A DNA stretch of 13,670 nucleotides from a virus (lineage: Duplodnaviria > Heunggongvirae > Uroviricota > Caudoviricetes): the IMG/VR virus record IMGVR_UViG_2541047435_000009. The stretch is one strand, 5' to 3'. Numbering within the stretch: position 1 is the first letter of the stretch; each line of letters begins with the position of its first letter. Below, in pieces: positions 595-9,962 of the stretch. The notes below the pieces were generated by a model, which was not told the origin of the DNA, did not search any database, and saw nothing but the letters and a program-made list of their open reading frames with translations. Position numbers and translations under genes: made by a program.

Positions 595-1071
595 ATGGAC
601 GGCGAGCTGAAAAATATGAAGTTAAATATTAATCAACTGGCAGCCCTTTCAGGTCTGCACCGGCAGACTGTTGCCGCCAGAATGGCGGATGTTCCTCTTG
701 CACCAGGCAGTAATGAAAAGAAAAAACTGTATCTCCTGACGGATTTGATAACTTCGTTGCTGGAAAAACCACCATCTTCCGAAGATGAGGATATGGATCC
801 TCACGCTCGTAAGGCATGGTATCAGTCCGAGCGCGAGCGTCTTAAATTTCAGCATGAAACTGTTCAGCTTGTGCCAGTCAGTGATGTCAGGCGGTCCTTT
901 TCTGTCGTGGTGAAAGCGATAGTTCAGGTACTGGAAACCTGGCCTGACCGGCTGGAGAGGGACAGGGGGTGGACTGCATCACAACTGAATGAAGTACAGA
1001 TTGTGGTTGATGAGATCCGCGACACACTGGAAAAGGCAGTCATTGACTGTTGTGATGAGGCCGATATGTGA
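595..1071 (+). CDS. nu1: terminase small subunit (Nu1-like)
   Basis: MKLNINQLAALSG... aligns with the lambda Nu1 N-terminal helix-turn-helix region (MEVNKKQLADIFG...). It is the first gene after cos, and its stop overlaps the large-subunit start (ATGTGA). GGAGGG at 583-588 precedes ATG 595; homology instead suggests ATG 616 as an alternative start. Confidence 0.8.
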   Translation: MDGELKNMKLNINQLAALSGLHRQTVAARMADVPLAPGSNEKKKLYLLTDLITSLLEKPPSSEDEDMDPHARKAWYQSERERLKFQHETVQLVPVSDVRRSFSVVVKAIVQVLETWPDRLERDRGWTASQLNEVQIVVDEIRDTLEKAVIDCCDEADM

Positions 1072-8433: not shown

Positions 8434-9177
8434 ATGACCACGCCAAATCCACTGGCAAAGACGAAAGGTGCGGGGACGACGTTCTGGATGTATACCGGCA
8501 ACGGCGATGCGTTTGCGAACCCTTTGTCGGACACTGACTGGCTGCGTCTTGCGATGGTGAAGGATCTGCAACCTGGCGAAATGACCGCTGATGCAGAAGA
8601 TGACACTTATCTCGATGATGAAGATGCAGACTGGAAAACGACAACCCAGGGGCAGAAATCCGTTGGTGATACTTCGGCGACGCTGGCCTGGCGTCCGGGT
8701 GACAGCGGGCAGAAAAAACTGGTTCAGTTGTTCGACTCCGGTGAAGTCTGCGCGTTTCGTATCAAATATCCCAACGGCACTGTTGATGTTTTCCGCGGCT
8801 GGCTGAGCTCACTGGGTAAAACCATTGCCTCAAAAGACGTGATGACCCGCACAGTGAAAATCAGCGGTGTGGGGCGTCCATATCTGGCAGAGGAGGGCAC
8901 TGAAACTGTGGGCGTTACCGGGCTGACGGTGGCACCGGCATCCGCCAGTGTCAATGTGGGAGCAACCACCACGCTGACCTTTACAGTAAAACCTGACGGA
9001 GCCAGTGACAAAGCGATCAGTGTGCATTCGACAGATCCACAGACAGCCACTGTGACCCTGAACGGACTTGTGGCCACGGTGAAAGGCGTGAAGCAGGGCA
9101 GCGTCAGCATTGTGGGCATGACCGCTGACGGGAATTTTGTGGCTGTGGCTGCGGTGACTGTCAGCGCTGCAGGTTAA
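8434..9177 (+). CDS. V: major tail protein (gpV-like) with C-terminal Ig-like (Big_2-type) domain
   Basis: 247 aa; MTTPNPLAKTKGAGTTFWMY...YLDDEDADW...FPNGTVDVFRGW... is near-collinear with lambda V ([20 protein letters not shown]...). AGGAGG at 8423-8428 precedes ATG 8434. Confidence 0.95.
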   Translation: MTTPNPLAKTKGAGTTFWMYTGNGDAFANPLSDTDWLRLAMVKDLQPGEMTADAEDDTYLDDEDADWKTTTQGQKSVGDTSATLAWRPGDSGQKKLVQLFDSGEVCAFRIKYPNGTVDVFRGWLSSLGKTIASKDVMTRTVKISGVGRPYLAEEGTETVGVTGLTVAPASASVNVGATTTLTFTVKPDGASDKAISVHSTDPQTATVTLNGLVATVKGVKQGSVSIVGMTADGNFVAVAAVTVSAAG

Positions 9178-9197: not shown

Positions 9198-9221
9198 GCC
9201 CCGGTTATCCGGGGCTTTTTT
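9198..9221 (+). terminator. intrinsic terminator-like hairpin between V and G
   Basis: Perfect 7-bp GC-rich stem GCCCCGG / CCGGGGC, loop TTAT, followed by TTTTTT. Confidence 0.6.
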
Positions 9222-9234
9222 GCAGGTGGAGAAC

Positions 9235-9624
9235 ATGATGTTTCTGAAACAGGGCACGTTTAATTATGAAAAGCAGTCCGTGGTGCTCAGTGAGCTGTCC
9301 GGGCTGCAGAGAATTGAATATCTGGCGTTTGTTCAGCAGCGAACGGCAAAGTTTGATGCCGAAGAGGGAGAACTGCCGGAGGCTGAACGACAGATTGCTT
9401 TTCTGCGGATGGGGATGGATATCAATGCCTGGCTGGTTTCCCGCTCACTGTGGAATGCGGAACAGTCTCAGGATGTTGAGACGCTTTGCGCATCCGTTAT
9501 TACAACATGGTCGTATGATGCCCTGGGAGCGGGGGCGGAGATGGTTCTGTCGCTGAGCGGTATGGGAGCCATTGAGAATGCCGGGGATTTGGAGCATGAG
9601 GTGCTGACGCCGGAAAAGTCCTGA
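9235..9624 (+). CDS. G: tail assembly chaperone (gpG-like)
   Basis: MMFLKQGTFNYEKQSVVLSELSGLQRIEYLAF... matches lambda G (MFLKTESFEHNGVTVTLSELSALQRIEHLAL...). Start at ATG 9235 or 9238. Confidence 0.85.
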   Translation: MMFLKQGTFNYEKQSVVLSELSGLQRIEYLAFVQQRTAKFDAEEGELPEAERQIAFLRMGMDINAWLVSRSLWNAEQSQDVETLCASVITTWSYDALGAGAEMVLSLSGMGAIENAGDLEHEVLTPEKS

Positions 9625-9962
9625 CGCGGGAAATGCAGTTTGTCATGCGGCTTGCCCGGGAGTTCCGGCGGGCAGACTGGCGGCGGATGCTGTCGGAAAT
9701 GTCGGCCACTGAGCTTGGTGAGTGGGGCGATTATTTCCGGATGCAGAGCTTCAGTGATGTGTGGATGGATGCGCAGTTTGCCTCGCTGAAGGCATTGATC
9801 GTGAGAATGGTGTCCGGTAGCAGTGATGCTGCGGTGGCTGATTTCAGCCTTTTACCGGAAGAGAACGGGATACCGGAGCGAACGGACGAAGAACTGATGC
9901 ATCTTGGGGAAGGTATTTCCGGAGGTGTGCGTTATGGACCAGATAGCCAACCTGGTCATTGA
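9235..9962 (+). CDS. T: tail assembly chaperone G-T fusion, made by programmed -1 ribosomal frameshift near 9612-9618
   Basis: The -1 frame is open only from 9600 and runs to the stop at 9960-9962, while G stops at 9622-9624. A-rich GGAAAAG (9612-9618) lies in the overlap. The G/T frameshift is conserved in lambda-like tail operons. Confidence 0.7.

What the first reader, a model, noticed from the sequence alone, without database searches (positions are those of the whole stretch)
9600..9640. G/T programmed -1 frameshift with a non-canonical candidate slip site (GGAAAAG rather than lambda GGGAAAG)
The T reading frame is the -1 frame relative to G and is open only from 9600, whereas G terminates at 9622-9624, so any frameshift must occur in about 25 nt. 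The only slippery-looking sequence there is G GAA AAG (9612-9618). The A-site shift AAG to AAA is classic, but the P-site shift GAA to GGA needs a mismatch at the middle codon position, unlike lambda's G GGA AAG. Either this phage uses a weaker or mechanistically different slip site, or the G:GT ratio is set differently.
Basis: partly seen in the sequence, partly recalled or inferred. Interest (0 to 1): 0.55.

Follow-up and report, generated by a model that had tools for sequence, protein, structure and literature searches.

The report
Common G-GAA-AAG tail-chaperone frameshift site
This is the ordinary lambda-type G/GT tail-chaperone -1 frameshift of a very common E. coli prophage; its "odd" slip site G GAA AAG is the majority form in this gene family and is already marked as the slippery sequence in the phage N15 GenBank record.

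Summary
Gene G (9238-9624) ends at TGA 9622-9624. The T frame is the -1 frame and is open only from 9600. G GAA AAG (9612-9618) is the only slippery sequence in the 25-nt overlap. G and T are lambda gpG and gpT equivalogs, lying between the tail tube and tape measure genes of an mEp460/cdtI-type prophage found in 1848 of 5426 complete E. coli genomes.

In a comparison of 321 related loci (54 clusters at 90% nt identity), GGAAAAG is the heptamer in 41 clusters and lambda's GGGAAAG in only 3. All seven bases are invariant while flanking third codon positions vary freely. The site always lies 11 codons upstream of the conserved LAREF motif of T. ATG 9633 has no Shine-Dalgarno sequence and is not conserved.

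I found no conserved downstream structure or upstream Shine-Dalgarno-like stimulator.

The N15 GenBank record already labels GGAAAAG as the slippery sequence, so this is a known kind of signal.

One point remains open. In a reconstituted in vitro system this heptamer behaved as poorly slippery, and its efficiency in vivo has not been measured in anything I found.

The parts
9238..9624 (+). Gene G, the tail assembly chaperone (128 aa, MFLK...TPEKS*). An alternative ATG lies at 9235; ATG 9238 sits 6 nt after GGAG 9228-9231 and aligns with lambda's Met1.
   Evidence: Pfam Phage_TAC_2 1.8e-39. NCBIfam TIGR01674 equivalog 5.7e-56. PGAP annotates a CDS from this start.
9600..9624 (+). The G/T overlap: the only stretch where the 0 frame (G) and the -1 frame (T) are both open. 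Any -1 shift must occur here.
   Evidence: -1 frame stop at 9597-9599, G stop at 9622-9624.
9612..9618 (+). Slip heptamer G GAA AAG. In the 0 frame it reads (CC)G GAA AAG = Pro-Glu-Lys; in the -1 frame, GGA AAA. tRNA-Lys re-pairs AAG to AAA. tRNA-Glu re-pairs GAA to GGA, with a G-U pair at the middle position.
   Evidence: All 7 columns invariant in 28 of 28 GGAAAAG clusters while flanking third positions vary. It is the heptamer in 283 of 321 loci and 41 of 54 clusters. The same heptamer is annotated as the slippery sequence in N15 record AF064539.
9618..9962 (+). T segment, read in the -1 frame after the shift (VLTREMQFVMRLAREFRRADWR...PGH*). The GT fusion is join(9238..9618, 9618..9962): 241 aa, junction ...LTPEK|VLTRE...
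   Evidence: Pfam Phage_tail_T 5.1e-15. NCBIfam TIGR01715 equivalog 2.3e-39, covering fusion residues 132-238. The alignment with 41 clusters from the heptamer onward is gap-free.
9633..9635 (+). ATG used by PGAP and several phage records as an independent start for T. I judge that it is not the real way T is made.
   Evidence: PGAP CDS from this ATG. Best anti-Shine-Dalgarno duplex upstream is only -1.1 kcal/mol. An ATG at this codon occurs in only 2 of 36 clusters. In 19 of 36 clusters the first ATG is at codon 23, after the conserved LAREFxRPDWR motif.
9598..9603 (+). GAGGTG, a Shine-Dalgarno-like hexamer 8 nt 5' of the heptamer. It is a candidate stimulator only and is not established.
   Evidence: [quoted passage not shown] N15/phi80-type relatives with the same heptamer have nothing comparable.

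Best explanation
This is the tail assembly chaperone pair G/GT of a lambdoid (mEp460/cdtI-type) prophage.

Most ribosomes translate G from ATG 9238 to TGA 9622-9624 and release the 128-aa chaperone. A small fraction slip back one nucleotide on G GAA AAG (9612-9618) and continue in the -1 frame to 9962. This yields a 241-aa GT fusion with junction ...TPEK|VLTRE....

The driving event is the known shiftiness of E. coli tRNA-Lys, which moves from AAG to AAA. The neighbouring tRNA-Glu re-pairs from GAA to GGA using G:C, G-U and A:U pairs. The site is therefore intermediate between a hexanucleotide NNA_AAG motif and a canonical X_XXY_YYZ heptamer.

No RNA structure or conserved Shine-Dalgarno-like stimulator accompanies it, so the shift is probably low-level, as in lambda.

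By homology with lambda, G and the G part of GT coat the tape measure protein H (gene start 9934), and the T part recruits the tail tube protein.

Status of each step:
- Shown: the frame map, the gene identities, and the conservation and position of the heptamer.
- Inferred: that the shift happens, its efficiency, and the two-tRNA versus one-tRNA detail.
For: - Frame map and unique heptamer.
- G and T are lambda gpG/gpT equivalogs lying between the tail tube and tape measure genes.
- At 67-70% nt identity, Gifsy-1, Fels-1 and Gifsy-2 keep CCGGAAAAG-YCC-TGA exactly.
- Across 321 loci (54 clusters), GGAAAAG is the heptamer in 41 clusters. Every locus has a slippery heptamer inside the overlap.
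- Nucleotide-level selection, each in 28 of 28 clusters:
  - Position 1 is G, although it is a third codon position; background G3 at fourfold sites is 34.7%. In the initial 28 clusters the preceding codon varies among CCG, GCG, CTG, TTG, GTG and ACG; ATG is also seen in the expanded 41.
  - Glu is always GAA (background 55%).
  - Lys is always AAG (background 37%).
- The site is always 11 codons 5' of LAREF and homologous in position to lambda's G GGA AAG.
- The junction rule reproduces UniProt P03735, lambda GT.
- N15 record AF064539 annotates GGAAAAG as the 'slippery sequence for -1 translational frameshift'. The Gifsy-1 and Gifsy-2 records describe T as part of a frameshift product.
- Literature: tRNA-Lys A_AAG shiftiness and NNA_AAG motifs; X_XX = G_GA listed among the recognised intermediates between the hexanucleotide and heptanucleotide situations (PMC5009743); GAA to GGA re-pairing via G:U discussed in PMC10885494.
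Against: - There is no direct protein evidence for GT in this phage type. The predicted fusion sequence is absent from a collection of 15 billion proteins.
- In a reconstituted E. coli system, AUG GAA AAG (= G GAA AAG) gave mainly 0-frame product at all EF-G concentrations. [quoted passage not shown]
- No conserved stimulator was found that could compensate.
- Family variants with worse 5'-codon re-pairing (G GCA AAA TAG) and one A GAA AAG locus (L249) suggest the 5' tRNA's re-pairing may matter little.
Confidence: 0.82

Rival explanations
1. Single-tRNA slippage. Only tRNA-Lys slips, on A_AAG (the hexanucleotide GAA_AAG type). This could occur in the A site or as peptidyl-tRNA in the P site while the next codon is awaited. 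tRNA-Glu does not re-pair, and the leading G is irrelevant to the mechanism.
For: [quoted passage not shown]
- A_AAG and NNA_AAG frameshifting is established in E. coli (PMC5009743; PMC4066793).
- Family variants G GCA AAA TAG and G GAA AAA TAG rely on Lys-tRNA next to a stop codon: 17 of 17 loci with an AAA-ending heptamer have TAG as the next codon.
- One locus (L249) has A GAA AAG.
Against: - Position 1 of the heptamer is G in 28 of 28 (and in the expanded set 41 of 41) GGAAAAG clusters across seven different preceding codons, although it is a third codon position with 34.7% background G. This is expected only if GGA in the -1 frame matters.
- In this window the codon after AAG is TCC, neither rare nor a stop.
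Confidence: 0.3
2. T is translated independently from ATG 9633, as PGAP and the mEp460/cdtI/Tritos records annotate it, and no frameshift is needed.
For: - An ATG exists at 9633, and annotators have used it.
- The NCBIfam T model starts about there, at fusion residue 132.
Against: - No Shine-Dalgarno sequence: -1.1 kcal/mol.
- The ATG is Leu (CTG) in Gifsy-1, Fels-1, N15 and lambda. An ATG at this codon occurs in only 2 of 36 clusters.
- In 19 of 36 clusters the first ATG lies after the most conserved T motif.
- The -1 frame always extends back over a slippery heptamer within the overlap, in 321 of 321 loci.
- Annotators disagree on the start: Ayreon uses a start about 70 nt further downstream.
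- In lambda, the T segment is made as part of the frameshift fusion gpGT (review PMC5009743).
Confidence: 0.05
3. Stimulated frameshifting of the dnaX type. The weak heptamer is boosted in this phage by the upstream Shine-Dalgarno-like GAGGTG (9598-9603, 8 nt 5') and/or by a downstream structure.
For: [quoted passage not shown]
- AGGA or GAGG occurs at similar distances in Gifsy-1, Gifsy-2 and Fels-1.
- Shine-Dalgarno-like elements 6-17 nt upstream are known stimulators (PMC4066793).
Against: - 16% of windows in the same gene pair equally well. The region encodes acidic residues (GAG/GAC codons), which generate such motifs anyway.
- N15, phi80 and mEp213-type relatives with the same heptamer have none: about 0 kcal/mol.
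- Downstream folding is no better than in shuffles: z = -0.77 and +0.92; family median z = -0.05.
- The consensus structure has 4 pairs, -1.5 kcal/mol, and no covariation.
- No Rfam frameshift element was found.
Confidence: 0.15
4. Transcriptional slippage on the A run, rather than ribosomal slippage, produces the -1 frame mRNA.
For: The heptamer contains a run of four A residues.
Against: - From my own knowledge, productive RNA polymerase slippage needs much longer homopolymer runs, about 8 or more.
- A four-A run would not explain the invariant flanking G bases or the AAG/GAA codon choice.
Confidence: 0.01

Closest known systems
Bacteriophage lambda G/GT -1 programmed frameshift (Levin, Hendrix and Casjens 1993; Xu, Hendrix and Duda 2004, 2013, 2014, as cited in PMC5009743)
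   Same: - Homologous G and T genes (NCBIfam equivalogs) in the same order, V-G-T-H.
- T is in the -1 frame and overlaps the end of G.
- The slip site is at the homologous position, 11 codons before LAREF/LAREM.
- The A-site codon is AAG.
- No evident RNA stimulator.
   Different: - The heptamer is G GAA AAG, not G GGA AAG. The P-site tRNA is therefore tRNA-Glu with a middle-position G-U after the shift, not tRNA-Gly with a wobble-position change.
- The G stop is 1 codon after the heptamer, not 5.
- T is shorter (114 aa after the junction, against 151 in lambda).
Phage N15 genes 14/15 (GenBank AF064539); also phi80, HK225 and mEp213
   Same: The same heptamer, GGAAAAG, sits at the same position. 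In N15 it is explicitly annotated 'slippery sequence for -1 translational frameshift'.
   Different: - About 36% protein identity to this window's GT.
- The preceding codon is GCG, not CCG.
- The G stop is 5 codons downstream.
- Nothing I could read gives experimental verification for N15.
Hexanucleotide NNA_AAG and tetranucleotide A_AAG frameshift motifs (IS1222 G_CGA_AAG, B. subtilis cdd; Licznar et al. 2003, as summarised in PMC5009743)
   Same: The shift is driven by tRNA-Lys(UUU) moving from AAG to AAA, and the 5' codon ends in A.
   Different: - Here the base before the 5' codon (G) is conserved and gives tRNA-Glu two Watson-Crick pairs plus a G-U pair in the -1 frame.
- The IS3 region used to test these motifs carries a pseudoknot stimulator; none is found here.
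G_GA-type heptamers of eukaryotic RNA viruses (X_XX = G_GA in insect-specific flaviviruses, some umbraviruses, dianthoviruses and mesoniviruses; PMC5009743)
   Same: X_XX = G_GA, so the 5' tRNA must re-pair from a GAN codon to GGA with a middle-position mismatch. The review lists these among the intermediates between the hexanucleotide and heptanucleotide situations.
   Different: These use eukaryotic ribosomes. The full heptamers are not given in the text I read; from my own knowledge they are typically G_GAU_UUY and usually depend on strong 3' RNA structures.
E. coli dnaX A AAA AAG
   Same: The A-site codon is AAG, read by the single E. coli tRNA-Lys. The window has a possible upstream Shine-Dalgarno-like element.
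   Different: dnaX has perfect P-site re-pairing, a proven Shine-Dalgarno stimulator and stem-loop, and very high efficiency (about 80% in the system of PMC6787027). Neither stimulator is supported here.

Membership tests
Lambda-type G/GT tail assembly chaperone frameshift | Two overlapping ORFs between the major tail tube gene and the tape measure gene, the second in the -1 frame | tested here: met
   V-like tube protein ends at 9177, G is 9238-9624, the T frame is 9600-9962, and the tape measure gene starts at 9934.
Lambda-type G/GT tail assembly chaperone frameshift | The upstream ORF is homologous to gpG and the downstream frame to gpT | tested here: met
   Pfam PF06894 1.8e-39 and PF06223 5.1e-15. 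NCBIfam equivalogs TIGR01674 5.7e-56 and TIGR01715 2.3e-39.
Lambda-type G/GT tail assembly chaperone frameshift | A slippery sequence lies inside the overlap, is conserved among homologues, and is at the position of lambda's site | tested here: met
   A heptamer lies within the overlap in 321 of 321 loci. It is always 11 codons 5' of LAREF. GGAAAAG is invariant in 41 of 54 clusters.
Lambda-type G/GT tail assembly chaperone frameshift | A GT fusion protein is made at a low, fixed ratio to G and is required for tail assembly | not testable with these tools
   This needs protein analysis or genetics. The predicted fusion is not in the protein collection.
Canonical X_XXY_YYZ tandem-slippage heptamer | X1 = X2 = X3, so the P-site tRNA keeps its first two pairs in the -1 frame | tested here: not met
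   The heptamer is G-G-A. GAA to GGA leaves a G-U pair at the middle position.
Canonical X_XXY_YYZ tandem-slippage heptamer | Y1 = Y2 = Y3, so the A-site tRNA re-pairs cognately (AAG to AAA) | tested here: met
   A AAG at 9615-9618.
Hexanucleotide NNA_AAG / A_AAG single-tRNA slippage | An A_AAG core, with the 5' codon not required to re-pair | tested here: inconclusive
   The core is present. The invariant G at position 1 argues that re-pairing matters. L249 (A GAA AAG) and the G GCA AAA TAG variants argue that it can be dispensed with.
dnaX/IS-type stimulated -1 frameshift | A conserved 3' stem-loop or pseudoknot | tested here: not met
   z = -0.77 and +0.92 in the window. Family median z = -0.05. 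RNAalifold gives 4 pairs, -1.5 kcal/mol, and no covariation. No Rfam hit.
dnaX/IS-type stimulated -1 frameshift | A conserved Shine-Dalgarno-like element 6-17 nt 5' of the motif | tested here: inconclusive
   GAGGTG lies 8 nt upstream in the window (-6.9 kcal/mol). It is not above the gene's own background and is absent in N15/phi80-type relatives.

The most novel reading that the evidence does not exclude
G GAA AAG may work at a biologically sufficient level in vivo, either through middle-position G-U re-pairing by tRNA-Glu (mnm5s2UUC anticodon) or through a stimulator not yet recognised (for example the nascent peptide ...TPEK, the YCC 3' context, or an E-site effect). Biochemists have used this heptamer as a poorly slippery comparison sequence, yet it is the majority slip site of lambda-type tail chaperones and appears to act without any RNA stimulator. 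If the reading is right, the rule that the P-site tRNA must keep its first two pairs would be looser in bacteria than reconstituted systems suggest.
Probability: 0.25. Interest if true: 0.45.

Novelty: already known. Interest (0 to 1): 0.2.

Why it matters
There are two practical consequences and one scientific one.

Annotation. RefSeq/PGAP and most phage records of this very common prophage type annotate T as a free-standing protein from ATG 9633. That protein is probably never made as such. The real product, GT (241 aa), is missing from protein databases.

Gene finding. Frameshift finders that accept only X_XXY_YYZ will miss the majority slip site of the lambda G/T family.

Mechanism. The family offers a natural series of slip sites at one homologous position: G_GAA_AAG, G_GGA_AAG, A_AAA_AAG, C_CCA_AAA, and NNN_AAA followed by TAG. 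This series could be used to measure how much P-site re-pairing contributes to -1 frameshifting in vivo. That is worth a small experiment, but it is not a surprise to specialists.

Tried and rejected
1. Downstream stimulatory RNA structure. Folding 9619-9720 and 9619-9670 gave z = -0.77 and +0.92. For 36 cluster representatives the median z was -0.05. RNAalifold on 41 clusters gave 4 pairs and no covariation. Rejected.
2. Known RNA families. Rfam at E <= 1 over 9400-9900 returned only a spurious lncRNA hit.
3. Upstream Shine-Dalgarno-like stimulator. One is present in the window but is neither above background nor family-wide. Left as unproven.
4. Independent T start at ATG 9633. Rejected on Shine-Dalgarno strength and conservation.
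5. Other GGAAAAG copies in the window. Only 1029-1035 is in register, and the -1 frame there closes after 3 codons. Chance occurrences.
6. Literature. Searches for GGAAAAG, G GAA AAG and spelling variants together with frameshift or slippery found no paper in the held library that discusses this heptamer in phages; only Peng et al. 2019 uses it, in vitro. Licznar et al. 2003 (PMC212731) is not held. I did not try to retrieve Xu et al. 2004 or Levin et al. 1993 and know them only through the review PMC5009743.
7. Exact look-up of the predicted GT fusions of this phage and of N15: absent. Lambda GT was present, as a positive control.

Full report
**Observation**

The sequence at 9560-9670 was read in all three frames.
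- Gene G occupies the frame whose codons start at positions = 1 mod 3. It reads ...GAG GTG CTG ACG CCG GAA AAG TCC TGA, with the stop at 9622-9624.
- The frame one base behind (-1) has TGA at 9597-9599 and is then open until the stop at 9960-9962.
- Both frames are therefore open only between 9600 and 9624.
- In that stretch GGAAAAG (9612-9618) lies in X XXY YYZ register, and it is the only position where the A-site codon could re-pair.

The heptamer by itself is not rare. It occurs seven times in the window against 2.1 expected, and 3 of 200 shuffles reach seven. One copy, at 1029-1035, is in register in the small terminase gene but leads into a -1 frame that closes after three codons. So the evidence has to come from context and conservation.

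**What the genes are**

| Feature | Family match |
|---|---|
| 0-frame ORF | Phage_TAC_2, lambda gpG (1.8e-39); NCBIfam equivalog TIGR01674 (5.7e-56) |
| -1 frame | Phage_tail_T (5.1e-15); NCBIfam equivalog TIGR01715 (2.3e-39) |
| Upstream genes | Z-, U- and V-like tail genes |
| Downstream gene | lambda-type tape measure protein |

The DNA is 98-100% identical to phages Ayreon, phi458, cdtI, mEp460 and Tritos. It is present in 1848 of 5426 complete E. coli genomes, including O157:H7 strains.

RefSeq/PGAP and the mEp460, Tritos and cdtI records annotate G and T as two separate genes. PGAP, mEp460 and Tritos start T at ATG 9633. Ayreon uses a later start.

**Comparison with relatives**

Gifsy-1, Fels-1 and Gifsy-2 are only 67-70% identical in DNA, yet they keep ACR CCG GAA AAG YCC TGA exactly while the flanks diverge.

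I then collected loci from one genome per species, from viral contigs with four different queries, and from named phages. I anchored each locus on the conserved LAREF motif of T. This gave 321 loci, which fall into 54 clusters at 90% nucleotide identity.

| Heptamer at the homologous position | Clusters |
|---|---|
| GGAAAAG (incl. N15, phi80, HK225, mEp213, and prophages of Citrobacter, Kosakonia, Kluyvera, Enterobacter, Providencia, Sodalis and others) | 41 |
| GGCAAAA | 4 |
| GGGAAAG (lambda, Stx2a phages, Edwardsiella) | 3 |
| GGAAAAA | 2 |
| AAAAAAG (VT1-Sakai/Stx1 phages) | 1 |
| CCCAAAA (a Vibrio phage) | 1 |
| GGGAAAA | 1 |
| AGAAAAG | 1 |

In all 321 loci the heptamer lies inside the G/T overlap. 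In every cluster except the Vibrio phage it lies exactly 11 codons before LAREF, with a gap-free alignment downstream.

My rule for building the fusion is to read the 0 frame through AAG and then re-read its last base. Applied to lambda, it reproduces UniProt P03735 (GT_LAMBD) exactly.

**Selection acts on the nucleotides, not only on the protein**

In 28 GGAAAAG clusters (the initial 36-cluster set) all seven columns are invariant. The neighbouring third codon positions carry 0.02-0.17 bits.
- Position 1 is the third base of the preceding codon. In the initial 28 clusters that codon is CCG, GCG, CTG, TTG, GTG or ACG; ATG is also seen in the expanded 41. The third base is always G, against 34.7% G at fourfold sites elsewhere in the same genes.
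- Glu is always GAA (55% elsewhere).
- Lys is always AAG (37% elsewhere).

If the shift occurs at the heptamer, the -1 frame codons GGA and AAA are never decoded as such. T-frame coding therefore cannot explain this pattern. This is the signature of a functional slip site, and the invariant leading G argues that GGA in the -1 frame matters.

**Independent initiation of T is unlikely**
- ATG 9633 has no Shine-Dalgarno sequence (-1.1 kcal/mol).
- Only 2 of 36 clusters have an ATG at that codon. It is Leu in lambda, N15, Gifsy-1 and Fels-1.
- In 19 of 36 clusters the first ATG of the T frame is at codon 23, beyond the most conserved motif, LAREFxRPDWR.

**Stimulators**
- The 50-100 nt after the heptamer fold no better than shuffles: z = -0.77 and +0.92.
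- The family median z is -0.05.
- A 41-sequence consensus fold has four invariant pairs, -1.5 kcal/mol, and no covariation.
- Rfam finds nothing relevant.
- The window has GAGGTG 8 nt upstream (-6.9 kcal/mol against the anti-Shine-Dalgarno sequence), and its closest relatives have AGGA or GAGG nearby. But 16% of windows in the same gene pair as well, the region encodes acidic residues, and N15/phi80-type members have nothing comparable.

I treat the Shine-Dalgarno-like element as unproven. The site appears to be a bare heptamer, which is also my recollection for lambda's site (I did not read Levin et al. 1993).

**Mechanism**

Established knowledge, as summarised in PMC5009743, PMC4066793 and PMC6787027:
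- The single E. coli tRNA-Lys shifts readily from AAG to AAA.
- A_AAG and NNA_AAG motifs support low-level -1 shifting.
- Adding a re-pairing 5' codon raises the level.
- Intermediates with X_XX = G_GA are recognised in several RNA virus groups.
- Mismatches in P-site re-pairing are tolerated in dnaX variants; first-position mismatches were the ones measured.

Here tRNA-Glu would re-pair from GAA to GGA with G:C, G-U and A:U. PRFect's authors discuss the same G:U re-pairing for the actinophage motif GGGGGAA (PMC10885494).

The most likely event is therefore a low-frequency slip of the two tRNAs on G GAA AAG. This gives the junction ...TPEK|VLTRE... and a 241-aa GT. By homology with lambda, G and GT bind the tape measure protein and the T part recruits the tube protein, in a ratio of about 30:1 (PMC5009743).

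The main mechanistic rival is slippage of tRNA-Lys alone. The family variants in which the heptamer ends in AAA support that rival. In 17 of 17 such loci the next codon is the stop TAG, and the 5' codon may be GCA, which cannot re-pair well.

**Is it known?**

Yes, in kind.
- The G/T frameshift is textbook.
- The Gifsy-1 and Gifsy-2 records describe T as part of a frameshift product.
- The N15 record (AF064539) carries a feature, 'slippery sequence for -1 translational frameshift', on exactly GGAAAAG.

I could not find three things in the held literature:
- any measurement of this heptamer's efficiency in vivo;
- any statement that it is the majority form;
- any deposited GT fusion for this phage type or for N15.

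One paper used AUG GAA AAG as the less slippery comparison to AUG GGA AAG. It found mainly 0-frame product in a reconstituted system (PMC6924986). There is thus a mild tension between the biochemistry and the strong natural conservation. A low required GT level or the in vivo context could resolve it.

**Verdict**

The feature is an ordinary, already recognised form of a well-known recoding signal, so interest is low. The useful by-products are an annotation correction (GT is join(9238..9618, 9618..9962), and T is not an independent gene) and a natural series of slip-site variants suitable for a simple reporter experiment.

Noticed in passing
L015, L017, L045, L273, L275, L276 and relatives (17 loci): A second solution exists within the same gene family. 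When the heptamer ends in AAA (G GCA AAA, G GAA AAA, G GGA AAA), the next 0-frame codon is the stop TAG in 17 of 17 loci. This suggests Lys-tRNA slippage while a stop codon occupies the A site. AAG-ending heptamers are mostly followed by sense codons.
   Followed up: partly
window 1029-1035 (+): A second GGAAAAG lies in X XXY YYZ register (CTG GAA AAG) near the end of the small terminase ORF (595-1071). The -1 frame closes at 1044, so a shift would only truncate the protein. It is probably a chance occurrence, and it shows the heptamer is tolerated inside an ordinary gene.
   Followed up: yes
window 9198-9215 (+): A GC-rich hairpin (7 pairs) followed by TTTTTT lies between the tail tube gene and G. 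It is annotated as a terminator in the Ayreon, mEp460 and N15 records. A partial terminator here would lower G/T/H expression relative to the tube protein.
   Followed up: no
window 9836-9853 (+): A small hairpin (GGCTG-ATTT-CAGCC) plus TTTT lies inside the T coding segment. The mEp460 record annotates it as a rho-independent terminator. My terminator scan did not report it.
   Followed up: no
window 9633; L004, L164, L165: PGAP/RefSeq (WP_001161009.1) and the mEp460, cdtI and Tritos records annotate T as a free-standing CDS. The predicted 241/242-aa GT fusion, and N15's, are absent from a 15-billion-protein collection, whereas lambda GT (P03735) is present.
   Followed up: yes
L047-L052, L055-L058, L067-L069 (genome contigs): Lambda-identical G/T junction sequences sit on short, often roughly 1x-coverage contigs in assemblies labelled Neobacillus, Oceanobacillus, Pseudomonas, Kitasatospora, Chromatium, Shewanella, Leeuwenhoekiella, Pseudoxanthomonas and Psychrobacter. 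This is almost certainly lambda DNA contamination. L007 ('Bacillota MAG') and L012 ('Proteobacteria MAG', soil) carry this E. coli prophage at 99% and 94% protein identity, which is probably misbinning.
   Followed up: no
L249 (hept 699-705) and L234 (hept 699-705): Two single natural variants of the slip site were found. L249 has A GAA AAG (GCA GAA AAG, position 1 not G). L234 has G GCA AAG, in an otherwise N15-like sequence. They may be weakened or inactive sites, or evidence that the 5' codon is dispensable.
   Followed up: no
window 9934-9962 (+): The tape measure gene, whose start is ATG 9934 per PGAP, overlaps the last 29 nt of the T frame. G, T and H are therefore packed together with overlapping ends.
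   Followed up: no
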